A DNA stretch of 64,000 nt from a virus (Duplodnaviria > Heunggongvirae > Uroviricota > Caudoviricetes), in the IMG/VR virus record IMGVR_UViG_3300029288_007064; one strand, 5' to 3'. The position numbers were made by a program, and so were the translations under genes. The notes beneath the pieces were generated by a model, which was given only the letters and a program-made list of their open reading frames with translations, was not told where the DNA came from and ran no database searches. Below, piece by piece: positions 7,022 to 32,968 of the stretch (the stretch's first letter is position 1; every line of letters begins with the position of its first letter).

Positions 7022-7025
7022 TTAA

Positions 7026-11682: not shown

Positions 11683-11685
11683 GCG

Positions 11686-11931: not shown

Positions 11932-11943
11932 TTATTTCACCTT

Positions 11944-17009: not shown

Positions 17010-17205
17010 TTTTCTTCGCCCTCAATACTACTTCGTATTCTGTTGGTGTATGCAATCCTGCTAAAAATATCTCGTGCAAGGCACTTAGTGTTTTAGCCCT
17101 TCCCTCGAATACATAATTGTCGTTGAAAATACTGCCGTGCAATATTTTATCCAAGAGGTCTTTTGGTTTCCTTATTATTCCTGTTTCTATTACCAGTTCG
17201 ATCAT
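17002..17205 (-). CDS. small hypothetical protein
   Basis: 67 aa. Confidence 0.3.
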   Translation of the reverse strand: MIELVIETGIIRKPKDLLDKILHGSIFNDNYVFEGRAKTLSALHEIFLAGLHTPTEYEVVLRAKKND

Positions 17206-17945
17206 TTTTTCACCTTATATAACTCCTTTATGTTATCCGGAAACGTATTCCCAGGTTTATTGGTGAATGTGATATCTCCTTTCTCAGCACAGAACCAAAG
17301 ATTCGGTCCGAATCTTTTCCAAAACCACTCAGTAATAAAGTTCAATTGCGGTGGAAAGAACCTCGTATATGCTGCTTCATTAATTACTTTGTATCCGGAG
17401 TGCTGCAATAAATACTTCAGTGTGGGATAATTGAAGGTGTAGAAATGGCAGTCGCTTTCATATGTCTTCTTAATTCCTTGTGGAATAAGTGAAGTGTATT
17501 GTGGTATTTGTAATATCAGCTTCCCATCTTCTTTAAGCAATTCTCTACATTGAAGTAAGAAAGCATAAGGAGCAGTCAGATGTATGAGCATATCTGTGCA
17601 CCAAATGTAGTCAAACTTTTCACCGTTGAACTTATCATAAAATCTTTCTTCAACATTTAATCTTCTGACATCAAGACCTAATTTGCTACAAAAACCATAA
17701 TGCTCGTCTGAAATATCAATACCAACTGAACCTTTTCCAAAGTGAATCAAGTTCTGACCATAAGCACATCCAATGTCAAGAAGTTTCTTGCTCAAATCCA
17801 TATTAAATTTTCCATAGATGTATCTATGGTCTTTGAACCAATCTTTGAAGTAGAGATTGTATACTACTTCGTTCTGTTCTTTCGTGTATGCACCTTTATT
17901 CAATATTAGTTCTTCAAGGGTATTCGTTTCAATTATTTTTTCCAT
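17202..17945 (-). CDS. class I SAM-dependent methyltransferase
   Basis: 247 aa. Motif I LLDIGCAYGQN and post-I acidic residue (GIDISDE). Confidence 0.75.
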   Translation of the reverse strand: MEKIIETNTLEELILNKGAYTKEQNEVVYNLYFKDWFKDHRYIYGKFNMDLSKKLLDIGCAYGQNLIHFGKGSVGIDISDEHYGFCSKLGLDVRRLNVEERFYDKFNGEKFDYIWCTDMLIHLTAPYAFLLQCRELLKEDGKLILQIPQYTSLIPQGIKKTYESDCHFYTFNYPTLKYLLQHSGYKVINEAAYTRFFPPQLNFITEWFWKRFGPNLWFCAEKGDITFTNKPGNTFPDNIKELYKVKK

Positions 17946-18083
17946 TTGCTACACTTCCGGTTCTGGTACTGTACAATCTCTATATTTTAGATTTTGTTCT
18001 TTGAATGGATAAAACTTTTCCCTTTTATGATAATAACCATATTGATTACCACAAAGTTGTGTTCCGCAATGTTTGCATTTCAT

Positions 18084-18314
18084 TTACTCTCCCTCCTCGT
18101 CCTTGTCAATCACGTTGTCCACATAGTCCGTTAAATCATCTAAAACTCTTAGACGAATTATATACATTTTTCTTTCTTCATCAGCCACTTCCGGATTAAG
18201 TATTTCTCCATTCAGAGTTCCCTTTTCGGAAATCTCCTTTGCTTTCTCTTGGTACACCTTTTGGAGTTTCCAAATATATTTCAGCAATTTTGCATAGTCT
18301 TTCATTTTAATCAC
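18084..18314 (-). CDS. small acidic hypothetical protein
   Basis: 76 aa. Confidence 0.3.
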   Translation of the reverse strand: MIKMKDYAKLLKYIWKLQKVYQEKAKEISEKGTLNGEILNPEVADEERKMYIIRLRVLDDLTDYVDNVIDKDEEGE

Positions 18315-18507
18315 TTTGTTTTTTATTCGAGAATAATTTATAATGTAATTCTTTCGCTCTATCTAAACAAGATTTTTCTCCTTTCTTTGCTTCGGCATGA
18401 AAATGCATTCCGTCAAATTCATCATAAGGAACATTATGTATAATCTCTCTTCCACATCCATCACAACATAGATATGAAATGATACGTGCTTCTTCTTTCC
18501 AAGTCAT
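18307..18507 (-). CDS. zinc-binding small protein
   Basis: 66 aa; CCDGCG...H..H. Confidence 0.35.
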   Translation of the reverse strand: MTWKEEARIISYLCCDGCGREIIHNVPYDEFDGMHFHAEAKKGEKSCLDRAKELHYKLFSNKKQSD

Positions 18508-18632
18508 TTAATCGTCCTCTTCTTCAGCAACAAATATTTCCCTCGTAAATTTAAGTTGTCCAACCAAATTCTTTTCCTCTTCTGTCATTCCGTATTCCAT
18601 AGGTTTTCACCAAGAAATACCTTGAAACAAAC

Positions 18633-18652
18633 AATTTATAAACCTATGCTTT
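18633..18652 (-). promoter_or_regulatory. archaeal-type TATA-box-like promoter element (TTTATAAACCTATGCT)
   Basis: TTTATAAA at 18635-18642, 35 bp upstream of a tiny unlisted ORF (MEYGMTEEEK..., ATG at 18600) that is coupled to the 18307..18507 gene. Confidence 0.35.
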
Positions 18653-18898
18653 TCACATGTATCCAAGTTCTTGCTCTATTTCTCCGAACACCTTATTATA
18701 TTCTTTTTCATTTTTACGCATAATGTACGCTTCACGTAAAGATGCGATAATAAGACCAACACCTATGACGAAAAATACTATCCCAACACCAAGCTCAATG
18801 ATGCTTTCTGAGATTACAATTTGTTGATAACCCACTACTACAAAATACATCCACAATAAGCAATACATTACATAATCTCTCCATTTATCTCCTAGCAC
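18653..18898 (-). CDS. small membrane protein
   Basis: 81 aa with two TM helices. Confidence 0.35.
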   Translation of the reverse strand: MLGDKWRDYVMYCLLWMYFVVVGYQQIVISESIIELGVGIVFFVIGVGLIIASLREAYIMRKNEKEYNKVFGEIEQELGYM

Positions 18899-20004
18899 TT
18901 AATCACCTTCTTAAATTCAATTTCTGTTTGCTTTACATTATTCTCCCAAGAGTGTTCTGTTGCAACTTTGTTGTATCCATTTGTTCTTAATGTTTTCATC
19001 AATTTCTGATTATCTAATTTCTCAACTACTTCTATCAATGCCTTAATATTTTCTTCTCTTGGTTCTGATGGAATAAGCAAACCATTAACTTTATCTTCAA
19101 TAAGTTCCTTATTTGGTTCAATATCGCTTGCAATTACTGGAACCTTTTCTGAGAACGCTTCTAGTATTGAATGAGACATTCCTTCATATGAAGAGTTCAG
19201 AATAAATGCTTTAGAGCAAGTAAGAATATTCATAAGCATAGCATTAGACAACTTTCCAGCAATCCGGATGTTTTTATATGGTTTTGCTTGTGCTCGTAAT
19301 TCTTTTTCAAGTGGTCCATCTCCTATTATGAGTATTTCTCTTTTTGGCATTCGTGAAAATGCTTCAATAATTCTATCAAATCTTTTCCATGGGACATATC
19401 TTCCATAAGCAATACATTTATCAGACCCAATTGCATCGTTATTTGGAGCATGTATTGCATTGTTTATTGCAACAATCTTTTTATCCTCTATTCCATAACA
19501 TTCATGTATAATCCTCTTCAAATATTTACTCGGAGTTATTACCAGAGAGCAATACTTCAATACTTCTTTCTGTATTTTTATTATATGCGGATTTGCGTCT
19601 GGGTCTTTAAGAAATGGTTCAAGTTCCTTTTCACTCGTGTTTTCTCTTCTTGCTTTCTCCCATGCAGTATCGCCAGCATATCTTATTGCTACAGGAATTT
19701 TAAACATATTTCCAAACACAACACAATTGGAACCTATCGCTGCGATATCTAAACCATATATAAGGTCGCTATCTCTTGCATACTGAGAAAGAGCTTTTAC
19801 TATTCTCATACTATTCATTATTTCTCCTTGTCGTATTATACTGTACACTTCTAGTCCATATTTCTGTTTTGGATGTTCTTTACATAATGTAATGATTTTT
19901 ACTTCATGTCCTTTCTTCTTTAAACCTAATGCCAAAGGCACAACATATGTTGCTGGACCACCAATCTCCGGAGGGAATAGTGGTGTTACGATTGTTATTT
20001 TCAT
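18892..20004 (-). CDS. GT4-family glycosyltransferase
   Basis: 370 aa; GT-B architecture; C-terminal EGMSHSILEAFSEKVPVIASD EX7E-like motif. Confidence 0.8.
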   Translation of the reverse strand: MKITIVTPLFPPEIGGPATYVVPLALGLKKKGHEVKIITLCKEHPKQKYGLEVYSIIRQGEIMNSMRIVKALSQYARDSDLIYGLDIAAIGSNCVVFGNMFKIPVAIRYAGDTAWEKARRENTSEKELEPFLKDPDANPHIIKIQKEVLKYCSLVITPSKYLKRIIHECYGIEDKKIVAINNAIHAPNNDAIGSDKCIAYGRYVPWKRFDRIIEAFSRMPKREILIIGDGPLEKELRAQAKPYKNIRIAGKLSNAMLMNILTCSKAFILNSSYEGMSHSILEAFSEKVPVIASDIEPNKELIEDKVNGLLIPSEPREENIKALIEVVEKLDNQKLMKTLRTNGYNKVATEHSWENNVKQTEIEFKKVIKC

Positions 20005-21506
20005 GGCTTAATCACCTGACCATTTTGGTCATATGAACACTTTTTCATTTTCTTAGTTCTCCCTTTCAAATATTTATTCGCGATAATGTATTCAATAGGG
20101 AAGTCAAAGTATTTAAATTTCCACCTTAGTTTTGAAGCTGTTATGAACAATCTCTTAAACAGATTATTCACTTTTATTCCTCCTTCCATTAGTCTTGTCT
20201 CTGGTGTAAGTGCAAAGTTCATGTATGCCCAAATTGCTTCAACAAAGTCTGGCTCATTCACCCATGGAAGTTTTGTTACTGAAATGTAGCTCCATTCTGT
20301 TTCCATTAAGTCAGACCATGCTTGCAAACTATCCGGTGCTTTCCATCCAAACGCTTCACATTCGTTATCCAAAGGACTTCCTGGATATGGACGGTAAGGT
20401 TGTGGTCCAATAAATTCAGCGTTAGGATTGGCTTCATAGAGCCTTGCAAACGCATCTATGGTTAGGAGCATATCTTCCTTTGTTTCATTAGGAAGACCTA
20501 TCATGAATGAATACTCAGGAGTGATTCCGAACTCCTTGGATTTCTTTGCCGATAAAACCAACTGGTCTGTACTTACATCTTTTTTAATCATACGCAATAT
20601 TCTTGGCGAACCGCTTTCTGCCCCAAAGCAGAACTTGTAACACCCAGAATCTTTTATCAACTGTAAGTATTCATCTGTTATAACTTTTGTGAAGTAATCA
20701 CCACGTACAGTCGTCTCCCATTCTACTTTTAATCCTCTGTCTATAATTCCTTGCATTATTTCTTTGGAGCGTTTTGGGTTATTAAAGAAGTTTTCATCCC
20801 AAAACCTTATCTTTCTTCCAGGATATTTCTTTGCAACCTGTTCAAGTTCATCAAGCACTCTCTTAGGAGACATTCCTCTCCAGCCACATCCGGTTATTGG
20901 ATTGATGCAATAAGCACATCTATGTGAGCACCCTCTGCTTGTATGTGAAGGCAATAACTTAATTTTATTCATTACTTCTTTATTTAGCAAGTCATAATTT
21001 ATGTATGGTGCTTTGTCCATATTAATGTAAGGTCTTCTAGGAGTGTGAATTACTTTACCATCTTTTTTAAATGTCAATCCTAATATTTTATCCAAACTTT
21101 TACTTTCACTTAAAGCTTTAGTTAATTCTACGCATGTTACTTCTCCTTCGTCTCTTACAACAATATCAACACGAGAGTCTATTACAGTTTGTGCTGGAAA
21201 TAAAGTTGGATGTGGACCACCCCAAACAATTGGAACTTCTGGTGCAAACTTCTTTATGTATTCGCTTAAAAATAATGCATGCGGTATCTGCACAGTCATT
21301 ACTGATAAGCCAATCCAAGTACAATTTTCTATCTCTTTTTTTATTTCTACTAGATGTTCTTTTGTAGTAAGACAATCAATAATTTTAACATCTATTCCTG
21401 CTTCCTTTAATGCCGAACCAACATATGCTATTCCTATCGGTATGCTTGTTGCATTACTATCAAATTCCAATCCGCTAAACACAGGATTAATCAATAACAC
21501 TTTCAC
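20001..21506 (-). CDS. B12-binding-domain radical SAM enzyme (class B)
   Basis: 501 aa. N-terminal Rossmann-like B12-binding domain (MKVLLINPVFS...IIDC...VWGGPHPT), then a CxxxCxxC cluster (SRGCSHRCAYCINP). Confidence 0.85.
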   Translation of the reverse strand: MKVLLINPVFSGLEFDSNATSIPIGIAYVGSALKEAGIDVKIIDCLTTKEHLVEIKKEIENCTWIGLSVMTVQIPHALFLSEYIKKFAPEVPIVWGGPHPTLFPAQTVIDSRVDIVVRDEGEVTCVELTKALSESKSLDKILGLTFKKDGKVIHTPRRPYINMDKAPYINYDLLNKEVMNKIKLLPSHTSRGCSHRCAYCINPITGCGWRGMSPKRVLDELEQVAKKYPGRKIRFWDENFFNNPKRSKEIMQGIIDRGLKVEWETTVRGDYFTKVITDEYLQLIKDSGCYKFCFGAESGSPRILRMIKKDVSTDQLVLSAKKSKEFGITPEYSFMIGLPNETKEDMLLTIDAFARLYEANPNAEFIGPQPYRPYPGSPLDNECEAFGWKAPDSLQAWSDLMETEWSYISVTKLPWVNEPDFVEAIWAYMNFALTPETRLMEGGIKVNNLFKRLFITASKLRWKFKYFDFPIEYIIANKYLKGRTKKMKKCSYDQNGQVIKP

Positions 21507-21925
21507 GATTTCTCTACCTCCTCTTTTACTAAAGCTAAATCCATTGCTACATCACGCATAAAATCTTCAAACTTTCTTGTTTCTAATTCTCCTTTTGCAC
21601 TTACGGGATTTATTACTAATGCTATTTGAACTTTGTAATATTTCTCCATCATATCTGCCAAGTCCTTCAAAAAAACTGCCGTTTTTATTTTGCTTTCTTC
21701 CATCTTACTATATGTATAATTCGTTTTGATATTGAACATACTTTCTAGTAAAAAGGCAGTTCTCCTTTTTTGGTCTGTGCTTAACTCTAAATCGACGCCA
21801 TTTAAAGATATATCAAGACTATCCGCCGGAATAATTACACATCCACAATTTCTTCCATACAAAGGTTCAAAATCAACCACATAATCATCGTGTCCTATTC
21901 TTATGCTAACAGATTCCGTATCCAT
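21503..21925 (-). CDS. hypothetical protein
   Basis: 140 aa; 4-nt overlap with the rSAM gene. Confidence 0.35.
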   Translation of the reverse strand: MDTESVSIRIGHDDYVVDFEPLYGRNCGCVIIPADSLDISLNGVDLELSTDQKRRTAFLLESMFNIKTNYTYSKMEESKIKTAVFLKDLADMMEKYYKVQIALVINPVSAKGELETRKFEDFMRDVAMDLALVKEEVEKS

Positions 21926-22384
21926 TTATTTCACCTTTTGAATATACTTTAACACATCATTATCCATATTAAACATTCCATCCACCGCCTTATCCGATAA
22001 CTTTCTCTTTTTATTTATTACAGAATAAACATAATTCTCTACATCACCTGATATAAGGTGTACGACCGTTTTTCTACGAGTGCTATCGAGCCTATGAATT
22101 CTATCTTCCACTTGCGATAGAACAGCAGGATTCCAAGGGAGTGTATAAACAATCAAAGTATCAAATTCATCCAAGTTCATTCCATACGATAATATCTTTG
22201 TAAAAATCATTATTACATTTTTGTCTGTGCTTTTTGCTAATTTAATTGCTTGCTCTCTATCTTCTTGTTCTGTATCACCAGATAATAGAATAATCTCCGT
22301 ATTCTCATATTTATCCTTTAGTTCATTATAAATTATATTAGCAACTGTCTTGAACTCAGAATAAATAGCAACTTTTTCACTCAT
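21926..22384 (-). CDS. SNF2-family ATPase, C-terminal helicase lobe (motifs IV-VI) as a separate ORF
   Basis: 152 aa. KVAIYSEF (motif IV-like), SYGMNL (motif V-like) and QVEDRIHRLDST (motif VI, QxxxRxxRxGQ-like). Confidence 0.7.
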   Translation of the reverse strand: MSEKVAIYSEFKTVANIIYNELKDKYENTEIILLSGDTEQEDREQAIKLAKSTDKNVIMIFTKILSYGMNLDEFDTLIVYTLPWNPAVLSQVEDRIHRLDSTRRKTVVHLISGDVENYVYSVINKKRKLSDKAVDGMFNMDNDVLKYIQKVK

Positions 22385-23669
22385 AGTTTTTCACCTTCTC
22401 CTTGAAACCTAATTCTTGCAAAATATCTTTTACTTCATCTATTTTTCCACTTCCTCCATCTATTTGTAAATTCTTCGCTATTTCGGATTTACTTTCTTTC
22501 AATGCCATAGGATGAGCAGCATTTATTCGGAGCAAAGCGAATAAGCCAAATGTATTTGTAGTGTTGTTATTTATTCCCTTTACTAGAGTTTTTAATTGAT
22601 ATTCAATCGATTCTTGACACTTTGTCAGAGGAATTTTTCTTACTTCATAATTCTTTGGAAGTAAATCTGTTACTTCTTCTTTTGTTCTTCTTATGAAATA
22701 AGGCAAAGCCTCTTTTCTAAATTCTTCTATACCTTTAAAGCCAACAATCTTTCTATAATCTCTTCCATTAACTTCTATAAAATCCCAAACACAATATTCA
22801 CCGTAAAATTTGTTTTTTGACATCCAATTTGGCTTTACTATGTTAAGTATGTTATGGAAATCCGATAACGAATTTTCAAGAGGAGTTCCTGTAAGTAATA
22901 ATACATCGCTTGCTTCCTTTCTTGCACGTTCCATTGTGAAATAAAGCAAACTCTTTGACGATTTGCATCGACTAATTTCATCGCCAATTATAAAGTAGTT
23001 GCTTAGATTTGGCTTATCATTCCTAAGTGTTTCATAACTAACAATGCTCCATTTCTTGTCGTTATTCCATAGTTCCGCCCTCTTCTTCTTTTGACCTTCA
23101 ATAATCTGAATTTCATCCGAAACTTCTGGGAGCCATTTTTCTATTTCTTGTTTCCATTGCAATTTAAGAGAATTTGGACACGTAATAAGTATTTTTTCAT
23201 TAAAAATTCTATTTCTAATATCTGCAAGATGTATTGCTTGAGTCGATTTTCCTAATCCCATCTCGTCTGCGATAAGAAACGAACCAGTTTTTATTGCTTG
23301 CCTTATTCCTTCTTTTTGAAAATCTTTTAGTTGACTTCCTGTATATAATTGATTAAATAACGCAAGTGCTTTTAAATACTTTTCCTTCTTTTCTTGTGCG
23401 TTTTTAACGAATAAGGACGCCTTGGCAGACAAAATAGGGCTAAAGATAAGGAGCTTTCGCTGAATGTCCTCGAAATCGTTATTCTCTAATGGAATTATCC
23501 ACGCTCCTTTTCCAGATTTGGTAATTATTGATGGATTCCAAATTGCCCTTGTAAAGTTTTCCTTAATAACTTTTATGATATTCGGATTGTAAGGTGTAAT
23601 AACCATTGCATATTCATTTTCTATATCGAGTTCTACAACCATGCTTATTCCACCTTTTCCCTCCTCCAT
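22377..23669 (-). CDS. SNF2-family ATPase, N-terminal lobe (motifs I-III) as a separate ORF
   Basis: 430 aa. LKDFQKEGIRQ (Q motif), LIADEMGLGKSTQAI (Walker A) and IIGDEISRCKS (DExx box). Stop overlaps the ATG of the C-lobe ORF. Confidence 0.75.
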   Translation of the reverse strand: MEEGKGGISMVVELDIENEYAMVITPYNPNIIKVIKENFTRAIWNPSIITKSGKGAWIIPLENNDFEDIQRKLLIFSPILSAKASLFVKNAQEKKEKYLKALALFNQLYTGSQLKDFQKEGIRQAIKTGSFLIADEMGLGKSTQAIHLADIRNRIFNEKILITCPNSLKLQWKQEIEKWLPEVSDEIQIIEGQKKKRAELWNNDKKWSIVSYETLRNDKPNLSNYFIIGDEISRCKSSKSLLYFTMERARKEASDVLLLTGTPLENSLSDFHNILNIVKPNWMSKNKFYGEYCVWDFIEVNGRDYRKIVGFKGIEEFRKEALPYFIRRTKEEVTDLLPKNYEVRKIPLTKCQESIEYQLKTLVKGINNNTTNTFGLFALLRINAAHPMALKESKSEIAKNLQIDGGSGKIDEVKDILQELGFKEKVKNYE

Positions 23670-23854: not shown

Positions 23855-23855
23855 C

Positions 23856-24068
23856 TTAAATAAATGCTTTCAATTCTTCATCTACTTGCTTATCACATTT
23901 ATCTTTGCAATAAGCTAGTTTATATTCTTCACCACGTTTAATCTTTCCTTCTTTTTTCTTACACCGTGGACAAATTGTTGCCATCATATCACCCTGTACA
24001 TGCTTTATCATAAGGTCTTGACATAAACTCTTGTACATCTTCTTCGTATAAATATCTATCACACACAC
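23856..24068 (-). CDS. zinc-ribbon protein
   Basis: 70 aa; CPRC...C..C. Confidence 0.35.
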   Translation of the reverse strand: MCVIDIYTKKMYKSLCQDLMIKHVQGDMMATICPRCKKKEGKIKRGEEYKLAYCKDKCDKQVDEELKAFI

Positions 24069-24348
24069 CCATATAATCTCTGAATTTATTGTCTCTTCTT
24101 ATCATTTCGCGAGAGTGTTCATCTATTTTATATTCTAGATGTAATAACTCATGATAAACAGTTGCTACAAATCTATGATAATTTTTATCTTCAGCAACTA
24201 CAATTGTATTGTTTTGTAGTATTGCACAACCACGACCTATATGTGGACAGTATTGTTCAGTTGCTTCCCAATCCGGCACAACAATTATATGTGGTGTTGA
24301 ATTAAGTGTAAGGCAAAATGCTGCAAATGTCATACAAAATGTCCACAT
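23989..24348 (-). CDS. small secreted or membrane-anchored HExxH zinc-metallopeptidase-like protein
   Basis: 119 aa. Hydrophobic N-terminus (MWTFCMTFAAFCLTL) and HELLH motif (VYHELLHLEY). Overlaps the upstream ORF end, so the true start is uncertain. Confidence 0.4.
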   Translation of the reverse strand: MWTFCMTFAAFCLTLNSTPHIIVVPDWEATEQYCPHIGRGCAILQNNTIVVAEDKNYHRFVATVYHELLHLEYKIDEHSREMIRRDNKFRDYMGVCDRYLYEEDVQEFMSRPYDKACTG

Positions 24349-25368
24349 TTATTTTACCACCGCTTTTATTTCTTTAGACATATTCTTCATCAAGTTTTTT
24401 AATGAATGTTGTTTACGAACTCTCAATTTTAGTTCATCACCTATCCATCGTGCTTCATTTGGATGGTTTAATAACCATTGCATTTTCTTTGCTAAATCTT
24501 TTACATCTCCCTTTTCAAATATACATTCTTTTTCATAATCTCTCAGAATTTCATTAAATGCTTCATTGCATACGAGTACAGGTTTGCCAGAAGCCATCGC
24601 TTCTAGTGCAGTCTTATCTAAACTACCAGTTCTACTCGCCGAAACAAAAAATAAGCACTCTGAATACATTTTTGGCATCATTGTATTTGGAATACTCCCA
24701 AGCAATGCTACTTTCTTACAAATCTTTCTATCAAATATCAATTTTTGTAATTTAGCTAGAGTTTCTTTTTCTGGATAAGGGTCTTCTCCAGCAATTTCTA
24801 AATGAACTTTGTTTTTAAGTTTTGCAAATGCTTCAATAACTACGTCATTATCTTTGATTGGTGACAATCTTCCAGCACTAAAAATATACCATCCTTTTGA
24901 TGAATAAAATTTAGAACAATCTATTCCTTGACTTAATACGACTTTCTTTTTGCTTAGAACTCTAAATCCAGATTCAGTAGATGTAATAACTTTAGTAGCA
25001 ATCTTTTCTGCTATTTGTAATTCTTTAGTTATTGCACCATGAGCATGAAACATCACTATTGGTATTTCATAAAGTGCTGCCGAAGGGAATATTGCGATAA
25101 CGAACTCTGGACACATGTGAGTTAGTATTACAGTTGGTTGTATTTGTGAGACTCTTCTGTTTATTTGCCATGTCTTTGCGGATTTGCAACCTGAAATCTT
25201 ATGTAGTTTTACATTCTCTGGCATTTCCATACCTTTGCCTCTCATATAGAAAACATCTATCTGCTCGAAATGATGTGATAAAAGAATTACCCAATTGGCA
25301 AAGAAGCCAAGTAAGTCTCCATCTTCATCTATTTCTTGAGTAATTATCAGCAGTTTCATTTTATTCAC
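24349..25368 (-). CDS. GT4-family glycosyltransferase
   Basis: 339 aa; GT-B fold; C-terminal ALEAMASGKPVL motif. Confidence 0.75.
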   Translation of the reverse strand: MNKMKLLIITQEIDEDGDLLGFFANWVILLSHHFEQIDVFYMRGKGMEMPENVKLHKISGCKSAKTWQINRRVSQIQPTVILTHMCPEFVIAIFPSAALYEIPIVMFHAHGAITKELQIAEKIATKVITSTESGFRVLSKKKVVLSQGIDCSKFYSSKGWYIFSAGRLSPIKDNDVVIEAFAKLKNKVHLEIAGEDPYPEKETLAKLQKLIFDRKICKKVALLGSIPNTMMPKMYSECLFFVSASRTGSLDKTALEAMASGKPVLVCNEAFNEILRDYEKECIFEKGDVKDLAKKMQWLLNHPNEARWIGDELKLRVRKQHSLKNLMKNMSKEIKAVVK

Positions 25369-25506: not shown

Positions 25507-26637
25507 TCATCCATTCATTTCACCCGCAATTAACTCAAACATTCTTCCTTTCATTTCTGATGTTTTCGTAATGTCATATTCCTTTATTGCTTTCTTTGCA
25601 TTATTAACTCTTATTTCTGTTGCTTCTTTATTTTCTGGAATTAGTACATTTAATATTGCATCTACAAGAGCATCTTCGTAATCGCCAGATACCATTGCTG
25701 TGTTTTCACTTATTATTGGATTAACTCTTCTTACAGCATTACTAACAACTACTGGAATACCATGTGCCATTGCCTCAATAACAACTAGTCCCCACCCTTC
25801 ATGCTTGGAAGGAAGAACCAAACAAGTCGCAGTATCATATTCACGATTTAAATCATTTTCATTAAGTCTTCCCAAGAAAGATACTTCATTTTGAACTTCT
25901 AATTGCTGACATAGATTTTCTAGGTTTTCTTCTTCTGGTCCTTCTCCTACTATTCTTAATTGATATTGATATCCTTCATCAATTAGTGTTGCAAATGCTT
26001 TGATAAGTAACTGAACATTCTTCTGAGGTACAAGTCTTCCTACAAACAGTATGGTGTTATCAGACCGTATTGACTTTACAACAGACTCTTTTATTTGAAT
26101 ATTTGTGCCTACGGGGATAAAGAAAACCTTATGAGGAGGAATACTCAACTTCAGCATATCGCTTAGTAGTTTTGGTGAAACAGTTCTAACTGCATCTGCT
26201 CTTTTGAGTAATTCCTTGCCAATGATATTTAGTATCCAATTATACCATCTTTCTTCTATCCATACTGGATTGTCAATCATTTCTGAATGCAAGTCAATTA
26301 CCAGCGGTATGCTTTTCTTTTCGAATAACCAGAAATACTTCTTTAGTATCCATCCAAGAAATCCTGTAAGGAAGGGGTCTTGGGTATTGAGGATGTGAAA
26401 GGACAGTTTCTTCAGTTCCCAAAACCCTTCCCACAGGAATAAAATGGGATTGTGTGATAAGCCAATATATTCTACGTTGTCTTCTTGCTTTGTTATTGGA
26501 TGCTGATTGCAAAGTGAGGTCATATATACATACTCATGATACGAGGAATAATATTTCATTCTATCGTGTAAATCACCTACAGGATTATCAGAGAATATGG
26601 AAGGGTCTCTTCCTATCATGAGTATGCGTGGTTTCAT
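25507..26637 (-). CDS. GT4-family glycosyltransferase
   Basis: 376 aa; HEGWGLVVIEAMAHGIPVVVS EX7E motif. Confidence 0.85.
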   Translation of the reverse strand: MKPRILMIGRDPSIFSDNPVGDLHDRMKYYSSYHEYVYMTSLCNQHPITKQEDNVEYIGLSHNPILFLWEGFWELKKLSFHILNTQDPFLTGFLGWILKKYFWLFEKKSIPLVIDLHSEMIDNPVWIEERWYNWILNIIGKELLKRADAVRTVSPKLLSDMLKLSIPPHKVFFIPVGTNIQIKESVVKSIRSDNTILFVGRLVPQKNVQLLIKAFATLIDEGYQYQLRIVGEGPEEENLENLCQQLEVQNEVSFLGRLNENDLNREYDTATCLVLPSKHEGWGLVVIEAMAHGIPVVVSNAVRRVNPIISENTAMVSGDYEDALVDAILNVLIPENKEATEIRVNNAKKAIKEYDITKTSEMKGRMFELIAGEMNG

Positions 26638-26673
26638 ATATTCACCTTATAAAAGAAAAATAAGAAAGGAGCT

Positions 26674-28098: not shown

Positions 28099-28574
28099 TT
28101 ATCCACTTCACTTCCTATTACTGAATACCTATATATTTTTCCATCATCTGCCATAAAACTTAGACGTACTTCATCGTTATCTGTATCGTCTTCGTCTTCA
28201 TATTTGCAGATATACATTTTATTGAACATCCACATTTTCTTGAAGATTTCAACAAACAAGTCCCATTCACAGACACGAATACTACGAATACTATAATCGT
28301 CCATGCTAGATTCTTGTCCATTCCATTCTTCTATCAAACGGATGTTCTCCGTTTCCTTCAATACCAAGTTTGGTATATCTTCCTTTTGTATTTTCTTCTT
28401 AAGTTCTTTGTATTCATCTTCTATGTCCATACCTTCACCTTCTTCTTCATTATTTTCTTCTTCCTCCTCTTCTTCAGTCTCTTCTTCTTCTTTGGTCAAA
28501 AAAGAAAGAATTACTGATATCCCCATAAAAGCTGCAAAAATCCAAACTATATTTTGTGTAAACCATTCAATCAT
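28095..28574 (-). CDS. membrane protein with acidic linker, possible NfeD-like partner of the SPFH protein
   Basis: 159 aa. N-terminal TM helix, poly-Glu stretch, beta-rich C-terminus. 4-nt overlap with the SPFH gene. Confidence 0.3.
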   Translation of the reverse strand: MIEWFTQNIVWIFAAFMGISVILSFLTKEEEETEEEEEEENNEEEGEGMDIEDEYKELKKKIQKEDIPNLVLKETENIRLIEEWNGQESSMDDYSIRSIRVCEWDLFVEIFKKMWMFNKMYICKYEDEDDTDNDEVRLSFMADDGKIYRYSVIGSEVDN

Positions 28575-28578
28575 TTTA

Positions 28579-29647: not shown

Positions 29648-30274
29648 TCACCTTATTGCCTTTATCATATTTACCAAATAAAACTGCTTGCCTAACTTCC
29701 TTTCTGATGGTAATATTAAGTTGTTATCCATCCACTTTACTATTGGTCTATACAAACCATGCAGAGGTCGGAGAGGTACAGGTGTTGTGAATAAAGTCAC
29801 TTCAGAAATAACTCCATACCTTCCTCCCAACTGCTCCACTTGTACCGATTTAAAGTGTGATTGTGCTTCTATTTGCATTTTTCTTCCTGTCCAGCGAATA
29901 TAATCTCCATAAACATCGGAGCCATGATAAGGATAAATAAATGGAATAGTGGCAAACAGCGTTCCTCCTCTCTTCAATACACGAGAGCACTCTCTAAAGA
30001 AGTGTTCTGTGTAATCAAGGTGTTCAAGAATATTCAAAGCCAGGATGCCGTCAAAGTGCTGGTCAGGAAGTGGGAATATCTCCGTAGCATCCATGACGAC
30101 ATCTGGCTTTGTTTCTGGGTCGATGTCTGCTCGTGTGATATCCGCTGTCTGAAGAGGGAGAGCAGACAATTCCGACTTTCCAGCACCAAGATTTAACCAC
30201 TTGCCTTGGAAGGACTGCTTCTTTAGATAATCATATTCCAGTTCTCTTGTTAGGGAAATCATTTTAGCACCCAC
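29648..30274 (-). CDS. class I SAM-dependent methyltransferase
   Basis: 208 aa; WLNLGAGKS motif I; Methyltransf_11-like layout. Confidence 0.65.
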   Translation of the reverse strand: MGAKMISLTRELEYDYLKKQSFQGKWLNLGAGKSELSALPLQTADITRADIDPETKPDVVMDATEIFPLPDQHFDGILALNILEHLDYTEHFFRECSRVLKRGGTLFATIPFIYPYHGSDVYGDYIRWTGRKMQIEAQSHFKSVQVEQLGGRYGVISEVTLFTTPVPLRPLHGLYRPIVKWMDNNLILPSERKLGKQFYLVNMIKAIR

Positions 30275-30555: not shown

Positions 30556-30821
30556 TTTTTCTCCTCCAATTCTATCTCTTTTTCTTTTACCATTTTTAAT
30601 GGATTATTTATAAGATGTACAAGAAATATTATAGATGCAAAAAAGAAAAACCATCCAAAAAATGTACCAAACATTATCTTTATATCTCCATTTGTGCAAA
30701 TGAACAAACACACAATCATGATTATTGCAAATGCGATTATTGCTAATATCGTAAATATTATTCTTATCCAATCTATTCTTTCTTCCCTTAAAATATACGT
30801 TTTTGTAGTCATATTTACCAC
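30552..30821 (-). CDS. small membrane protein
   Basis: 89 aa, two TM helices. Confidence 0.35.
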   Translation of the reverse strand: MVNMTTKTYILREERIDWIRIIFTILAIIAFAIIMIVCLFICTNGDIKIMFGTFFGWFFFFASIIFLVHLINNPLKMVKEKEIELEEKK

Positions 30822-31207
30822 CTCTCATCTAGCTTCTTCTCAATCCTTTCAAGTATTTTTGTTACATTTGTCAATCCAGGATTGCGTTTATAGTTCTGTA
30901 AATTTACTTCTTGTGTAAGTCCTATTCGTGATTCCAATACAAATCCGGCAAGCCATACACAGAACATTCCAAGAGGAACGAATATTATAACTACTGTTTC
31001 TGTTTCTTGAATACCTGTTAGCACTTTCAGTTTATCAGATGCTGTGACCACAAGGAGCACGAAGTTTGTAATAGTCAGCAATTGCATTCCTTGAAGCCAG
31101 CGATAGTATTGCTCTGCTGTGAATGTTCTACCTTTACGGAGAACGGATTTTACTTTTTCTATCATAATCTCATCCATATTTCTAGACACTCTAACCAATA
31201 TATCCAA
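30815..31207 (-). CDS. membrane protein
   Basis: 130 aa, 2-3 TM helices. Confidence 0.35.
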   Translation of the reverse strand: MDILVRVSRNMDEIMIEKVKSVLRKGRTFTAEQYYRWLQGMQLLTITNFVLLVVTASDKLKVLTGIQETETVVIIFVPLGMFCVWLAGFVLESRIGLTQEVNLQNYKRNPGLTNVTKILERIEKKLDERW

Positions 31208-31251
31208 TTACGTTTTGCTATTTTTAATTGAAACAAATAATCTTTAAACAT

Positions 31252-31710
31252 TTATTCCACCTTCTTAATCTCCTTTGCAGGAACACCTACAACAACTGTG
31301 AATGGGTCCACATCATCAGTTACAACTGCACCTGCTCCGACAACTGCTCCTTCTCCAATTGTAACTCCTGGAAGGATTATGCATCCTATTCCTAACCACA
31401 CACCTTTGCAAATTTTTATTGGTTCTGAGACGTGTGTTCTTTCTGAATAGTGTTGATTTAAATCTAACCCTGAAGAAGAGATACAAACGTGAGGAGAAAT
31501 TCTAACATAATCTTCTATGGTTATGCGTTCTAATCCTGAAATAACCACGCCATCATTTATACTTACATTATCGCCAATATCGACGTTTTCTGGAACGGGA
31601 ATGTATATTCTACCATTTACTCTAAAGTTCTTTCCGCAATGTAATAACACTAGCTTCCAATAAAGTGTTCGTAGTCTTCTAGATACTTCAGAATAAATAA
31701 TTCCAATCAT
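31252..31710 (-). CDS. hexapeptide-repeat (left-handed beta-helix) acyl/acetyltransferase (sugar O-acetyltransferase-like)
   Basis: 152 aa with tandem [LIV]G-x4 hexapeptides (VWLGIGCIILPGVTIGEGAVVGAGAVV). Confidence 0.8.
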   Translation of the reverse strand: MIGIIYSEVSRRLRTLYWKLVLLHCGKNFRVNGRIYIPVPENVDIGDNVSINDGVVISGLERITIEDYVRISPHVCISSSGLDLNQHYSERTHVSEPIKICKGVWLGIGCIILPGVTIGEGAVVGAGAVVTDDVDPFTVVVGVPAKEIKKVE

Positions 31711-31711
31711 G

Positions 31712-32308
31712 TTATTCCACCATTATTTTACATAGATTAGTGTGAAATTTCGCACTCGCCGCCAAACAAAATTCCCATTGCTTAAATACAAGCAACGAAT
31801 GATGGTCTCCTGTTAGTTCCGGATATTTCTCGAATAAAACTTGATGCGCCATCTCGTGTCCTATTACACAATACGAATCAGAACATTCCGGATGAATAAA
31901 TACTTTCCCGTCACTTGTTGTCCAAGCGCAAGGTGAATATTCCTCACCATCACTACCTAATGCAGAAATATTTTGTTTAGTTATCGTTGTTTGAATTGCT
32001 GGTATATCTATTCCTAATTCTCTAATAAAACTAGATAACTCTTGAACTTCTGCGTCTGTATATTCGTTACTTATTATGTTCGGATTACCATTATATGTAG
32101 TAGTATTTATTTCTGAACATAAAGACATTGTATATAGGTCTAGGATAAGTAAGAATAAGCAAAGTGTACCTTTTATCTTATTTCCTACATACGGTCGAAT
32201 AACACGACGACTTCTTTCTACGTGTTTTTTTACCTTTCTTTCACTAGATAGAGCACGTAATCTCCTTTTTTGCTTCTTATGATATTTGCGTCGTTTATTC
32301 TTTCTCAT
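31712..32308 (-). CDS. HExxH zinc-metallopeptidase-like protein with basic N-terminus and TM segment
   Basis: 198 aa. Arg/Lys-rich N-terminus, a hydrophobic segment, then CVIGHEMAHQVLFEKYP. TATA-like element 36 bp upstream. Confidence 0.45.
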   Translation of the reverse strand: MRKNKRRKYHKKQKRRLRALSSERKVKKHVERSRRVIRPYVGNKIKGTLCLFLLILDLYTMSLCSEINTTTYNGNPNIISNEYTDAEVQELSSFIRELGIDIPAIQTTITKQNISALGSDGEEYSPCAWTTSDGKVFIHPECSDSYCVIGHEMAHQVLFEKYPELTGDHHSLLVFKQWEFCLAASAKFHTNLCKIMVE

Positions 32309-32334
32309 GAGTAAATCCTCTTTATAATTAATGA

Positions 32335-32362
32335 TACATACTATTTATAACCCTTTGCTCTT
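32335..32362 (-). promoter_or_regulatory. archaeal-type TATA-box-like promoter (CATACTATTTATAACCCTTTGCTCTTC)
   Basis: TTTATAAC at 32344-32351, 36 bp upstream of the ATG at 32308. 27-bp identical copy at 51978-52004. Confidence 0.4.
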
Positions 32363-32968
32363 CCTTATTTTCATGAAATAACCATCTCTAAATAATGGTA
32401 AGATATTCGCAATAATAGCAAACACCCGATTACTCGACGTATAAATGAAATATTCTATTTCTAATCCTTCTATGCCTTCTACTTTGTGATAAACTTTTTC
32501 TTGTTTTAAAAACTTCTCTATACAAGATGGCGGATAGGGTCTTATGTGGTCCATTGTATTCCACACTACCGGTTGAAGTGGTGAAGATATATACGCTATC
32601 CCTTCCGGTTTAAGATGACGTGAAATAAACACGAATAATTGTTGCGCATCTTCTGGTGTTAAATGCTCTAATAATTGGTGTGCGGTTATTCCATCAATAC
32701 TCCCCCACTCGAAACTACAATTTTTAAATGTATCATGGAAAACTTTTATTCCTTTGTTCTCGCATTCCTTTGCACATATTTCGCTATTTTCAATTCCTAT
32801 CCAATTTTCCTTATCAAGAATTGCATCACCCGAACCGCAACCTATATCTATAACTTTCTTCCCTATAAGATGCTTCATTTGCAACTCTCCAGATTGCTTT
32901 TCTTTCCAATATTGTAACATTCCGTTTATATTCATATATTCACCAAGGGTTATCATAACCATAACCAT
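32345..32968 (-). CDS. class I SAM-dependent methyltransferase
   Basis: 207 aa; VIDIGCGSGDAI motif I. Confidence 0.75.
   Translation of the reverse strand: MVMVMITLGEYMNINGMLQYWKEKQSGELQMKHLIGKKVIDIGCGSGDAILDKENWIGIENSEICAKECENKGIKVFHDTFKNCSFEWGSIDGITAHQLLEHLTPEDAQQLFVFISRHLKPEGIAYISSPLQPVVWNTMDHIRPYPPSCIEKFLKQEKVYHKVEGIEGLEIEYFIYTSSNRVFAIIANILPLFRDGYFMKIRKSKGL

What the first reader, a model, noticed from the sequence alone, without database searches (positions are those of the whole stretch)
17202..32968. Large element-borne glycan biosynthesis and modification island, including a B12-radical-SAM enzyme
The set comprises four GT4 glycosyltransferases (7913, 18892, 24349, 25507), Ugd plus epimerase plus a UXS-like enzyme (0-3.6 kb), three class I SAM methyltransferases, a hexapeptide O-acetyltransferase and a class B radical SAM enzyme (B12-binding domain + CxxxCxxC).
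This is a near-autonomous pathway for an acidic (GlcA/GalA/Xyl), methylated and acetylated glycan. The likely target is the sequon-rich giant protein at 55.6-63.4 kb.
A B12-rSAM enzyme embedded in a glycosylation island (C-methylation or another radical sugar modification) is unusual for a mobile element.
Basis: partly seen in the sequence, partly recalled or inferred. Interest (0 to 1): 0.6.

Follow-up and report, generated by a model that had tools for sequence, protein, structure and literature searches.

The report
Host-derived glycan pathway on archaeal element
A closed 94-kb virus-like DNA circle, probably of a tiny DPANN archaeon, carries its own copy of most of its host lineage's surface-sugar pathway, including an uncharacterised vitamin-B12 radical enzyme, together with two huge secreted proteins packed with sugar-attachment sites.

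Summary
All listed genes are real: four GT4 glycosyltransferases, Ugd, a UDP-GlcA-epimerase-like SDR, a UXS cut by the window start, three class I methyltransferases, a hexapeptide acetyltransferase and a class B radical SAM enzyme (rSAM).

They are not one contiguous island. They lie in patches between replication genes on a closed 93,817-bp circle. Outside the window the circle also encodes a sugar-1-P nucleotidyltransferase and a DPAGT1/AglH-type initiating transferase.

At least 13 of these genes are 33-69% identical to genes of one cellular glycan cluster. Its only named source is a Micrarchaeota MAG. The block p140-rSAM-GT4 is syntenic with that cluster.

The rSAM-GT4 pairing is not an oddity of the element. 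It is the core of a cluster conserved in all 80 genome loci retrieved (79 labelled Patescibacteria or with generic labels). This rSAM subfamily matches no curated family.

The proposed target is supported statistically. The 2,591-aa protein has 154 N-X-S/T sequons against 64 expected (z=14). It has a signal peptide and a C-terminal anchor. A neighbouring 1,314-aa beta-helix protein is similarly enriched (z=7.6).

Best reading: a host-derived lipid-linked N-glycan assembly pathway that decorates the element's own surface proteins. It would rely on the host's flippase and oligosaccharyltransferase. The rSAM chemistry is unresolved.

The parts
1..402 (-). N-terminal third of UDP-xylose synthase (UXS, 306 aa in full); the gene runs off the window start
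   Evidence: The full gene is seen in L009 12022-12942. It scores 306 bits, E 2e-90, to human UXS1; the next family scores 126 bits. It carries the motifs STSEVYGDP and YDEGKR. It is 66% identical to the SDR of cellular locus L006.
1152..2423 (-). UDP-glucose 6-dehydrogenase (Ugd/AglM-like): UDP-Glc to UDP-GlcA
   Evidence: Three UDPG_MGDP_dh domains. TIGR03026 at 457 bits is above its cut-off; AglM scores 440 bits. It is 62% identical to the L006 Ugd.
2644..3576 (-). SDR nucleotide-sugar 4-epimerase, probably UDP-GlcA 4-epimerase
   Evidence: PF01370/PF16363. Motifs SSSSVYG and YGVSK. The best solved relative is the 6zl6/6zla epimerase at 213 bits. It is 65% identical to the L006 homologue. 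Substrate is inferred.
7913..9028 (-). GT4 glycosyltransferase 'a'; its orthologues sit directly after Ugd in cellular clusters, so it is possibly a GlcA transferase
   Evidence: PF00534 E 6e-48 plus PF13439. It is 61% identical to the L006 GT4 adjacent to Ugd. The Ugd-GT4a adjacency recurs in CPR loci.
17202..17945 (-). Class I SAM methyltransferase 1
   Evidence: PF13489 E 1e-13. It is 58% identical to the L004 methyltransferase in the Micrarchaeota cluster.
18892..20004 (-). GT4 glycosyltransferase 'b'; its start codon overlaps the rSAM stop codon (ATGA)
   Evidence: PF00534 E 2e-26 plus PF13439. It is 50-53% identical to the GT4 directly downstream of the rSAM in L004/L006. The overlap is seen in the sequence.
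20001..21506 (-). Cobalamin-dependent (class B) radical SAM enzyme of an uncharacterised CPR/DPANN subfamily
   Evidence: PF02310 plus PF04055. CxxxCxxC is invariant in the family alignment. No NCBIfam equivalog is reached; the best is HpnJ at 151 bits against a 578-bit cut-off. It is 68-71% identical to three cellular proteins and 38-50% to hundreds of others, those that carry a name being Patescibacteria. The AF2 model has pLDDT 80.5 and a class B fold.
21503..21925 (-). p140: a 140-aa protein of unknown function, the conserved upstream partner of the rSAM
   Evidence: It is 52-54% identical to the 144/145-aa ORF directly upstream of the rSAM in L004/L006. It has no Pfam or NCBIfam match. 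It is absent from the other 79 loci of the genome scan, nearly all Patescibacteria.
24349..25368 (-). GT4 glycosyltransferase 'c' (the C-terminal GT-B domain is recognised)
   Evidence: PF00534 E 9e-24. It maps to the 'GT4c' position of the conserved CPR cluster, at up to 34% identity.
25507..26637 (-). GT4 glycosyltransferase 'd'
   Evidence: PF00534 E 4e-38. It maps to the GT4 directly downstream of the rSAM in CPR clusters, at up to 31% identity.
29648..30274 (-). Class I SAM methyltransferase 2
   Evidence: PF08241 E 9e-13. It is 29-34% identical to cluster methyltransferases in L004/L006 and in CPR loci.
30815..31207 (-). 130-aa membrane protein that co-occurs with the cluster
   Evidence: It is 42% identical to the 113-aa ORF next to the SDR in the Micrarchaeota cluster L004. 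It has no family match.
31252..31710 (-). Hexapeptide-repeat O-acetyltransferase (WcaF/LacA-like)
   Evidence: PF00132 E 2e-14. WcaF-family 80 bits and LacA 78 bits, both below cut-off. It is 45% identical to the L006 hexapeptide gene.
32345..32968 (-). Class I SAM methyltransferase 3
   Evidence: PF13649/PF13489. It is 33% identical to an L006 cluster methyltransferase.
55607..63382 (-). Giant secreted, C-terminally anchored protein (2,591 aa): the proposed N-glycan acceptor
   Evidence: It has 154 N-X-S/T sequons against 64.3 expected from its own composition, z=14.1. It has a signal peptide, a C-terminal TM helix and an RRRKKD tail, and the sequons are spread along the whole length. It has a DUF2341 domain.
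21926..23669 (-). Split SNF2 helicase (430 aa + 152 aa). It is not part of the pathway. It shows that glycan genes are interleaved with the replication backbone
   Evidence: PF00176 and PF00271 lie on two ORFs that overlap by 8 nt. It is a single 552-aa ORF in relative L092.

Best explanation
The window is two thirds of a closed 93.8-kb extrachromosomal circle, most likely a virus of a low-GC DPANN archaeon. The circle carries a host-derived pathway that assembles a lipid-linked oligosaccharide.

Proposed sequence of steps:
1. An element-encoded sugar-1-P nucleotidyltransferase, Ugd, UXS and a GlcA-4-epimerase-like SDR supply UDP-GlcA, UDP-Xyl and probably UDP-GalA.
2. A DPAGT1/AglH-type transferase primes dolichyl phosphate with HexNAc-1-P.
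3. Four distinct GT4 enzymes extend the chain.
4. Three SAM methyltransferases, one hexapeptide acetyltransferase and the p140-rSAM pair modify it. The B12-radical SAM enzyme performs a radical modification of a sugar, either C-methylation or a rearrangement.
5. The host's flippase and AglB oligosaccharyltransferase then transfer the glycan to N-X-S/T sites. The main acceptors would be the element's own two secreted, hyper-sequon proteins (2,591 aa and 1,314 aa).

Shown: gene identities, the closed circle, homology and synteny with the cellular cluster, sequon enrichment.

Inferred: the lipid carrier, N-linkage, the order of steps, the acceptor, the rSAM chemistry, and the host.
For: - Gene identities.
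- Closed circle: record = window-15146 and record = window+78671, which differ by 93,817 = 93,958-141. Identity is 100% over 16,360 and 12,423 bases. No tRNA was found.
- Interleaving with PolB, clamp loader, AAA_24, the primase-like protein, ERCC4 and SNF2. These backbone genes are shared with relatives L092/L093, which show no glycan genes in the about 20 kb seen.
- Viral backbone lineage: relatives carry a terminase large subunit (L095) or 7-deazaguanine DNA-modification genes (L093, L094).
- Host-derived: Ugd 62%, UXS 66%, NTP_transferase 60%, SDR1 65%, GT4a 61%, MT1 58%, GT4b 53%, rSAM 69%, p140 54%, 130-aa protein 42%, acetyltransferase 45%, and MT2/MT3 about 33% identical to genes of loci L004/L006. 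L004 carries ABCE1 and Alba and is labelled Candidatus Micrarchaeota.
- The rSAM is sister to that clade in an NJ tree.
- N-glycan reading: the initiator matches dolichyl-P GlcNAc-1-P transferase (58 bits) better than MraY (33 bits), and has NxxNxxAGxNGxE instead of the bacterial DGxDG.
- Acceptors: the two large secreted proteins are 2-2.4 times enriched in sequons (z=14.1 and 7.6). The other element proteins are not clearly enriched; the next highest z is about 3, on one to four sites.
Against: - No oligosaccharyltransferase or flippase was found on the element. 2,887 bp of the circle could not be read.
- The cellular clusters also hold a polysaccharide deacetylase and a FemAB-like acyltransferase. 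These would fit a wall polymer or polysaccharide as well as an N-glycan.
- The closest cellular loci have 53-56% GC against 35% for the element, so they are not the actual host. No CRISPR or other direct host link was obtained.
- No capsid, portal or clear terminase was detected on this element. There is only a HerA/FtsK-like ATPase (PDB HerA E 0.003; phrog terminase large subunit E 9e-5) followed by nine proteins with N-terminal TM helices. It could therefore be a plasmid-like element.
- GT4c and GT4d are only 27-34% identical to any homologue found.
- Sequon enrichment is statistical evidence, not proof of glycosylation by this pathway.
Confidence: 0.55

Rival explanations
1. The same enzymes mainly remodel or boost the host cell's own surface glycan. 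The purpose would be superinfection exclusion, receptor masking, or changed adhesion of the episymbiont to its partner cell, rather than serving the element's own proteins.
For: The genes are orthologues of the host-type cluster, so they probably make a similar glycan. Published surveys interpret glycosyltransferase and nucleotide-sugar genes of CPR/DPANN viruses as cell-surface modification genes (PMC11310336; PMC12647753). Lysogenic conversion by phage glycan-modifying genes is well established (own knowledge). An integrase is present.
Against: It does not explain why the element itself encodes two secreted proteins carrying 234 sequons, far above expectation. The two readings are not exclusive.
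Confidence: 0.25
2. The pathway makes a non-protein product, such as a capsule-like or wall polysaccharide, or a glycolipid, assembled on a polyprenyl carrier and not transferred to Asn.
For: Cellular versions of the cluster include a Wzx-type flippase (Polysacc_synt), a polysaccharide deacetylase and a FemAB-like acyltransferase. In CPR bacteria, which lack AglB-type N-glycosylation as far as I know, the same core is conserved. GT4 best matches include TuaC, EpsE and BshA.
Against: The initiator is of the DPAGT1/AglH type. Sequon enrichment of neighbouring secreted proteins is strong. No polymerase (Wzy) or chain-length regulator was seen on the element.
Confidence: 0.15
3. The SNF2-p140-rSAM-GT4 block modifies nucleic acid, or is a conflict/defence module, rather than making a glycan.
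For: The block is tightly packed, with overlapping start and stop codons, and includes a helicase. Three of the GT4s also hit the Pfam family 'GT4-conflict' above its threshold. Relatives of the element modify their DNA with 7-deazaguanine.
Against: The orthologous p140-rSAM-GT4 block sits in cellular sugar clusters without any helicase. PADLOC gives nothing for the GT4s and only a weak generic hit for the rSAM. The SNF2 gene belongs to the shared replication backbone.
Confidence: 0.03
4. The genes are a fragment of a host chromosomal LPS or S-layer locus, or a chimeric mis-assembly, and are not truly element-borne.
For: The gene content resembles a cellular cluster. The element is absent from IMG/VR.
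Against: The circle closes with exactly the k-mer overlap. The window is identical across the junction, apart from three clustered SNPs that suggest it comes from a separate assembly. Glycan genes alternate with backbone genes on one strand. GC3 is uniform: 0.29 for glycan genes against 0.26 for the backbone. There are no ribosomal, tRNA or other housekeeping genes.
Confidence: 0.02

Closest known systems
Archaeal Agl N-glycosylation pathway (AglH-type priming, soluble GTs, AglM Ugd, AglF nucleotidyltransferase, AglP methyltransferase, AglB OST)
   Same: It has a DPAGT1/AglH-type initiator, an AglM-like Ugd (440 bits), a nucleotidyltransferase, several cytoplasmic GTs, a SAM methyltransferase and sequon-rich, C-terminally anchored surface acceptors.
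   Different: It is encoded on an extrachromosomal element. No AglB or flippase was found. None of the GTs reaches an Agl equivalog cut-off (Agl16 48-73 bits against 575). It contains a B12-radical SAM enzyme, which to my knowledge is not part of any characterised Agl pathway.
Cell-surface-modification auxiliary genes of CPR/DPANN viruses (PMC11310336; PMC12647753)
   Same: Viruses linked to DPANN, including Micrarchaeota, and to CPR are reported to carry glycosyltransferases, nucleotide-sugar genes and ConA/LamG-type surface proteins. This element has all three; DUF2341 is the N-terminal domain of the giant protein.
   Different: Those reports describe single or few genes on genomes of about 40 kb. 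Here at least 16 genes, about 13.7 kb or roughly 15% of a 94-kb circle, reproduce most of one host cluster. They include the initiator, a class B rSAM and its partner protein, and they are paired with hyper-sequon acceptor proteins.
Autonomous glycosylation machineries of giant eukaryotic viruses (chloroviruses, Mimiviridae); own knowledge
   Same: In both, the virus encodes nucleotide-sugar synthesis, GTs and methyltransferases or acetyltransferases that are used to glycosylate its own structural or surface proteins.
   Different: The host is archaeal and the element is far smaller. The pathway appears to be lipid-linked and dependent on the host OST. The genes are clearly host-lineage orthologues.
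Sugar-modifying cobalamin-dependent radical SAM enzymes (GenK/GenD1 C-methylases, OxsB ring contraction, HpnJ; plus AprD4 diol dehydratase, a structural neighbour)
   Same: It has an N-terminal B12 domain, a CxxxCxxC radical SAM core, a sugar-pathway context and a class B fold. Foldseek TM-scores are 0.60-0.67 to TsrM, MgmA, OxsB, AprD4, CysS and TokK.
   Different: It is below every curated family cut-off. It forms its own clade of roughly 480-500-aa proteins confined to CPR/DPANN glycan clusters. The substrate and reaction are unknown.
Phage seroconversion modules (Gtr, Oac and similar); own knowledge
   Same: Both are mobile-element genes that alter a surface glycan using host lipid-carrier machinery.
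   Different: Those modules add one residue or an acetyl group to an existing O-antigen. This is a near-complete de novo assembly pathway.

Membership tests
Class B (cobalamin-dependent) radical SAM enzymes | N-terminal Rossmann-type B12-binding domain | tested here: met
   PF02310 E 2.9e-21 over residues 22-128. The AF2 model superposes on TsrM, MgmA, OxsB and TokK.
Class B (cobalamin-dependent) radical SAM enzymes | Radical SAM core with a CxxxCxxC [4Fe-4S] motif | tested here: met
   PF04055 E 4.9e-20. C193, C197 and C200 are invariant in the 12-sequence alignment.
Class B (cobalamin-dependent) radical SAM enzymes | Actual cobalamin binding and methyl transfer or rearrangement activity | not testable with these tools
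   This needs purified protein, reconstitution and assay.
Named class B subfamilies (HpnJ, PhpK, BchE, BzaD, MgmA, HpnR, TsrM and others) | Score at or above the curated equivalog cut-off | tested here: not met
   The best scores are HpnJ 151 against 578, PhpK 140 against 600 and BchE 135 against 481. It is therefore not a member of any curated subfamily.
CAZy GT4 (GT-B, retaining) glycosyltransferases | C-terminal Glycos_transf_1 domain with an N-terminal GT4-type domain | tested here: met
   PF00534 is present in all four. PF13439 or PF13579 is present in three. For 24349-25368 only the C-terminal domain is recognised. No CAZy or dbCAN run was available.
Archaeal N-glycosylation (Agl) pathway | Polyprenyl-phosphate HexNAc-1-P transferase of the GPT/AglH type | tested here: met
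   PF00953 protein on the same circle, outside the window. DPAGT1 scores 58 bits against 33 for MraY. The NxxNxxAGxNGxE motif is present.
Archaeal N-glycosylation (Agl) pathway | Oligosaccharyltransferase AglB (STT3) and a flippase | tested here: not met
   No STT3 or Polysacc_synt hit was found among the genes called on the 97% of the circle that was read. 2.9 kb remain unread. The function is presumably supplied by the host.
Archaeal N-glycosylation (Agl) pathway | Secreted acceptor proteins with N-X-S/T sequons | tested here: met
   The giant protein has 154 sequons, z=14.1. The beta-helix protein has 80, z=7.6. Both have signal peptides.
Archaeal N-glycosylation (Agl) pathway | Glycan actually N-linked to protein | not testable with these tools
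   This needs glycoproteomics.
UDP-xylose synthase (UXS) | Specific similarity to UXS, with the STSEVYGDP and YDEGKR catalytic motifs | tested here: met
   It scores 306 bits to human UXS1; the next family scores 126 bits. The motifs are shown.
Virus (as opposed to plasmid or other extrachromosomal element) | Capsid protein and a genome-packaging enzyme | tested here: inconclusive
   No capsid or portal was found in Pfam or PHROGs. A 485-aa HerA/FtsK-like ATPase gives only weak hits: a phrog terminase large subunit at 9e-5 and HerA at 0.003. Relatives by PolB include one with a bona fide terminase large subunit.
Conserved CPR/DPANN 'GT4-rSAM-GT4' glycan cluster (defined here) | An rSAM of this subfamily directly flanked by GT4 genes, with Ugd/SDR and methyltransferase genes nearby | tested here: met
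   Across 80 genomic loci, a GT4 lies directly upstream in 60 and directly downstream in 41. The window's four GT4s map to four different cluster positions. In the element the genes are dispersed, but p140-rSAM-GT4b stays intact.

The most novel reading that the evidence does not exclude
The rSAM, with p140 and its flanking GT4s, would define a new radical sugar-modifying chemistry. An example would be C-methylation, epimerisation or ring rearrangement of a residue on a lipid-linked glycan. This chemistry would be a signature of CPR/DPANN surface glycans. A DPANN virus or extrachromosomal element would have captured the whole pathway so that its own giant adhesin-like proteins wear the host's glycan coat. 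Adhesion or host range in these episymbioses would then be under mobile-element control.
Probability: 0.3. Interest if true: 0.7.

Novelty: new variant of a known kind. Interest (0 to 1): 0.5.

Why it matters
DPANN archaea and CPR bacteria live attached to other cells, and their surface glycoproteins are thought to mediate that contact.

This is a complete mobile replicon that carries both giant surface proteins and most of the pathway to glycosylate them. If the reading is right, surface identity in these organisms can be moved or rewritten by a virus-like element.

The work also brings out an uncharacterised cobalamin-dependent radical SAM subfamily. It is conserved next to glycosyltransferases in all 80 genome loci retrieved, nearly all of them Patescibacteria (CPR). 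As far as is known, these organisms cannot make B12. The compact three-gene unit p140-rSAM-GT4 is a practical candidate for biochemical study.

The general idea that DPANN/CPR viruses carry glycosylation genes is already published, so the advance is in completeness and detail rather than in kind.

Tried and rejected
- IMG/VR scans with the rSAM and with a neighbouring 679-aa protein found nothing. One JGI metagenome scan also found nothing. No closely related element carrying this pathway was therefore found.
- Virion genes: PHROGs and Pfam on 30 unknown proteins of the element gave no capsid or portal. The 358-aa candidate has no homologue at all among 5.8 billion proteins. tblastn of the ATPase against 50,697 phage records found nothing.
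- Borg-like element: rejected. Tandem repeats are few and the molecule is a circle.
- CPR bacterial host: considered because hundreds of rSAM homologues are from Patescibacteria. It is disfavoured by the following:
  - the 69% match to a Micrarchaeota locus that carries ABCE1 and Alba;
  - the DPAGT1-type initiator;
  - the XerA-like integrase;
  - PolB relatives binned with Aenigmarchaeota and Micrarchaeaceae.
- Recent capture from the sampled Micrarchaeota: rejected. Their GC is 53-56% against 35%, the glycan genes are compositionally the same as the backbone, and the rSAM is sister to that clade, not nested in it.
- Assigning the rSAM reaction failed. Profile and fold comparisons hit methylases (TsrM, MgmA, TokK, CysS) and non-methylases (OxsB, AprD4, HpnJ, BchE) about equally.
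- A p140 profile search of the CPR loci found no homologue.
- PADLOC gave no defence-system assignment.
- A 2026 review of B12-rSAM enzymes mentions no glycan, phage or archaeal case.

Full report
**What is in the window**

The window has about 35% GC. Nearly all genes are on the minus strand and there is no tRNA.

- Four GT4 glycosyltransferases: 7913-9028, 18892-20004, 24349-25368 and 25507-26637.
- Ugd at 1152-2423.
- An SDR epimerase at 2644-3576.
- Three class I methyltransferases: 17202-17945, 29648-30274 and 32345-32968.
- A WcaF/LacA-like hexapeptide acetyltransferase at 31252-31710.
- A 501-aa enzyme at 20001-21506 with a B12-binding domain, a radical SAM (rSAM) core and CxxxCxxC.

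The 'UXS-like' gene is cut by the window start; window 1-402 is its N-terminus. The complete 306-aa protein scores 306 bits to human UXS1 and has the STSEVYGDP and YDEGKR motifs.

The other SDR has SSSSVYG and YGVSK. Its best solved relative is the 6zl6/6zla epimerase, which I recall to be the Bacillus cereus UDP-GlcA 4-epimerase. A supply of UDP-GlcA, UDP-Xyl and probably UDP-GalA is therefore well founded.

**Not a contiguous island**

Non-glycan genes lie between the glycan genes. They include a split SNF2 helicase, a flotillin-like SPFH protein, an ERCC4 nuclease and many small ORFs. PolB, two DNA methyltransferases, a clamp loader, a primase-like protein and an AAA_24 ATPase follow at 35-44 kb. 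The 13 glycan-related genes cover 11.4 kb, 17.8% of the window.

**The replicon**

The window is 100% identical to ENA contig ERZ27247363:k141_2937403 (93,958 bp) in two segments. Window 15,147 onward equals record 1 onward. Window 1-15,146 equals record 78,672-93,817.

The two offsets differ by 93,817 = 93,958 - 141, which is exactly a terminal k-mer overlap. Three clustered mismatches at 51,410-51,420 suggest that the window comes from another assembly that spans the junction. The molecule is therefore a closed 93.8-kb circle.

Outside the window the circle adds:
- a sugar-1-P nucleotidyltransferase;
- a PF00953 transferase;
- a XerA-like integrase;
- a 1,314-aa beta-helix protein;
- a HerA/FtsK-like ATPase followed by nine proteins with N-terminal TM helices.

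No tRNA was found in the 97% of the circle that I could read, and no ribosomal-protein or other housekeeping family appears among the Pfam hits of its called genes. 2,887 bp remain unread.

**Virus or plasmid**

No capsid or portal was recognised. The ATPase gives only weak hits: a phrog terminase large subunit at 9e-5 and HerA at 0.003.

The replication backbone is shared with metagenomic relatives. PolB is 60% identical in L092, 43% in L093, 42% in L094 and 37% in L095. L093 and L094 carry 7-deazaguanine DNA-modification genes. L095 was binned with an Aenigmarchaeota MAG and has a bona fide terminase large subunit.

I consider a virus more likely than a plasmid, at roughly two to one. None of these relatives shows glycan genes in the about 20 kb seen, so the pathway is accessory cargo of this particular element.

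**Origin of the glycan genes**

The rSAM has three close relatives at 68-71% identity. After those come hundreds of proteins at 38-50% identity over 96% of the length, the named ones being from Patescibacteria.

The close ones sit in cellular loci. L004/L011 is a 92-kb contig labelled Candidatus Micrarchaeota and has ABCE1 and Alba nearby. L006 is a 34-kb contig with a Wzx-type flippase, a nucleotidyltransferase, Ugd, GT4s, a deacetylase and PGM/PMM.

Identities between element genes and genes of these loci:

| Element gene | Identity to L004/L006 gene |
|---|---|
| rSAM | 69% |
| UXS | 66% |
| SDR1 | 65% |
| Ugd | 62% |
| GT4a | 61% |
| Nucleotidyltransferase | 60% |
| MT1 | 58% |
| p140 | 52-54% |
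| GT4b | 53% |
| Acetyltransferase | 45% |
| 130-aa membrane protein | 42% |
| MT2, MT3 | about 33% |

The block p140-rSAM-GT4b keeps the cellular order, and its start and stop codons overlap.

The element's rSAM is sister to the three cellular sequences, which are 79-81% identical to each other. Those loci have 53-56% GC against 35% for the element. The glycan genes have the same GC3 as the backbone, 0.29 against 0.26. The capture is therefore old, or came from an unsampled low-GC relative. The sampled Micrarchaeota are not the host.

**The rSAM-GT4 module is a conserved cellular unit**

One scan of species-representative genomes returned 80 loci. One is the Micrarchaeota locus. The other 79 carry Patescibacteria names or generic 'bacterium'/'Gammaproteobacteria' MAG labels.

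The typical order is [SDR/Ugd]-GT4a-GT4b-rSAM-GT4d-GT4c-MT. A GT4 lies directly upstream of the rSAM in 60 loci and directly downstream in 41. There are often two or three rSAM paralogues. The window's four GT4s each match a different position of this cluster.

A B12-rSAM next to GTs is thus the rule in this lineage pool, not an oddity. It is rare on mobile elements, however. Only 9 of 50,697 phage records hold any class B rSAM, all at 25% identity or less. Plasmid hits are below 31% identity.

**What the rSAM does**

Membership of class B is met: both domains, the motif, and an AF2 model with pLDDT 80.5 that superposes on class B structures.

No curated subfamily is reached. The best is HpnJ at 151 bits against a 578-bit cut-off.

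Sequence and fold neighbours mix C-methylases (MgmA, TokK, CysS, TsrM) with non-methylases acting on sugars or nucleosides (OxsB, AprD4, HpnJ). The reaction cannot be assigned.

My estimate is about 45% sugar C-methylation, 35% another radical sugar transformation and 20% a non-sugar substrate. Seven invariant tryptophans in the family alignment fit a carbohydrate substrate, but this is only a hint.

**The target**

The 2,591-aa protein has a signal peptide, a C-terminal TM helix with a basic tail, and 154 N-X-S/T sequons spread along its length. Shuffles of its own composition give 64.3, so z=14.1.

The 1,314-aa beta-helix protein upstream has 80 sequons against 41 expected, z=7.6. The membrane proteins nearby are, if anything, depleted.

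The initiating enzyme resembles dolichyl-P GlcNAc-1-P transferase (DPAGT1, 58 bits) more than MraY (33 bits). It has the AGxNGxE variant of the active-site motif, which I recall as typical of the eukaryotic/archaeal GPT/AglH type.

Together these points favour N-glycosylation of the element's own surface proteins through the host's AglB. The link remains an inference.

**Comparison with what is known**

Surveys of groundwater and acid-mine-drainage viromes already report glycosyltransferases, nucleotide-sugar genes and ConA/LamG proteins on CPR/DPANN viruses, including Micrarchaeota-linked ones. The complete DPANN viral genomes they describe are about 41 kb.

What is new here is the scale and coherence:
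- at least 16 genes reproduce most of one host cluster on a 94-kb circle;
- an initiator is included;
- a class B rSAM with its conserved partner is included;
- the pathway is paired with hyper-sequon acceptor proteins.

A 2026 review of B12-rSAM enzymes mentions no glycan, phage or archaeal example.

**Verdict**

The finding is a richer variant of a known kind. Interest is moderate (0.5).

Noticed in passing
window 21926-23669 (-): The SNF2 helicase is split into two ORFs: 430 aa holding the SNF2 N-lobe and 152 aa holding Helicase_C. They overlap by 8 nt (ATGA-type junction at 22377-22384). The homologue in the closest relative, L092, is a single 552-aa ORF. It could be a functional two-subunit split, a frameshift or a pseudogene.
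   Followed up: partly
window 3573-4953 (-): A Thg1-like protein (tRNA-His guanylyltransferase family, 254 aa) and an RlaP nucleotidyltransferase (201 aa) are adjacent, between the sugar genes and small ORFs. This looks like an RNA/tRNA 5'-end repair pair carried by the element. A weak PTH2 peptidyl-tRNA hydrolase hit lies outside the window (L009 16454-16864).
   Followed up: no
window 45000-46000, with the plus-strand ORF 45952-47349: This is the only long intergenic region. It has imperfect direct repeats of about 50 and 105 bp containing TACCGTCGT, plus AT-rich inverted repeats. It sits at the one strand switch, where GC skew changes sign, and lies next to a divergent 465-aa ORF with no family match. 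It may be the replication origin and its initiator.
   Followed up: partly
L091 2576-12815 (same circle, outside the window; would be about window 66.6-76.8 kb): A HerA/FtsK-like ATPase (485 aa, Walker B IVTVMDEAD) is followed by nine consecutive proteins of 90-694 aa, each with an N-terminal TM helix. None has any family match, and one was shown to be an ORFan. This could be a packaging/membrane module of a non-tailed virus or a DNA-transfer apparatus.
   Followed up: partly
L091 13106-18577 (outside the window, just upstream of the giant gene): A 1,314-aa NosD/beta-helix secreted protein with 80 sequons (z=7.6) is followed by an Rce1-like CAAX protease and a YdjM-family membrane protein. These are possible processing factors for the two giant surface proteins.
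   Followed up: partly
window 37345-39566 (-): Two adjacent N6/N4 DNA methyltransferases lie directly upstream of PolB. Relatives of the element instead carry 7-deazaguanine (QueC/QueE/FolE/TGT) DNA-modification genes at the equivalent place (L093, L094).
   Followed up: no
window 13874-14491 (-): An ankyrin-repeat protein (205 aa) with a possible C-terminal zinc ribbon. Ankyrin repeats are uncommon in archaeal mobile elements.
   Followed up: no
window 23989-24348 (-) and 31712-32308 (-): Two small proteins with HExxH zinc-metallopeptidase motifs (HELLH; HEMAH) sit beside glycosyltransferase or acetyltransferase genes. The first gives a faint 'phage metallopeptidase' hit. The second begins with a very basic K/R-rich N-terminal stretch, followed by a hydrophobic segment.
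   Followed up: no
window 26674-28098 (-) and 28095-28574 (-): A flotillin-like SPFH/Band 7 protein (474 aa) has a long E/K/A-rich coiled region. It is followed by a 159-aa protein with a poly-Glu tract, which corresponds to a 15-bp tandem repeat at 28435-28492.
   Followed up: no
window 51410-51420: Three clustered base differences (T/C, A/C, C/A) are the only mismatches between the window and the ENA contig over the 47,177 bases I aligned directly (16,360 + 12,423 + 18,394). They fall inside the small ORF 51384-51791. This is microheterogeneity between assemblies or strains.
   Followed up: partly
L002, L008 and many of L012-L090 (Patescibacteria loci): The conserved CPR cluster often holds two or three paralogous B12-rSAM genes alternating with GT4 genes. 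In L002 and L008 there is also a SPASM-type rSAM, and L002 has a UbiA prenyltransferase and an amine-oxidase-like gene nearby. This suggests repeated radical modification steps in organisms not known to make cobalamin.
   Followed up: partly
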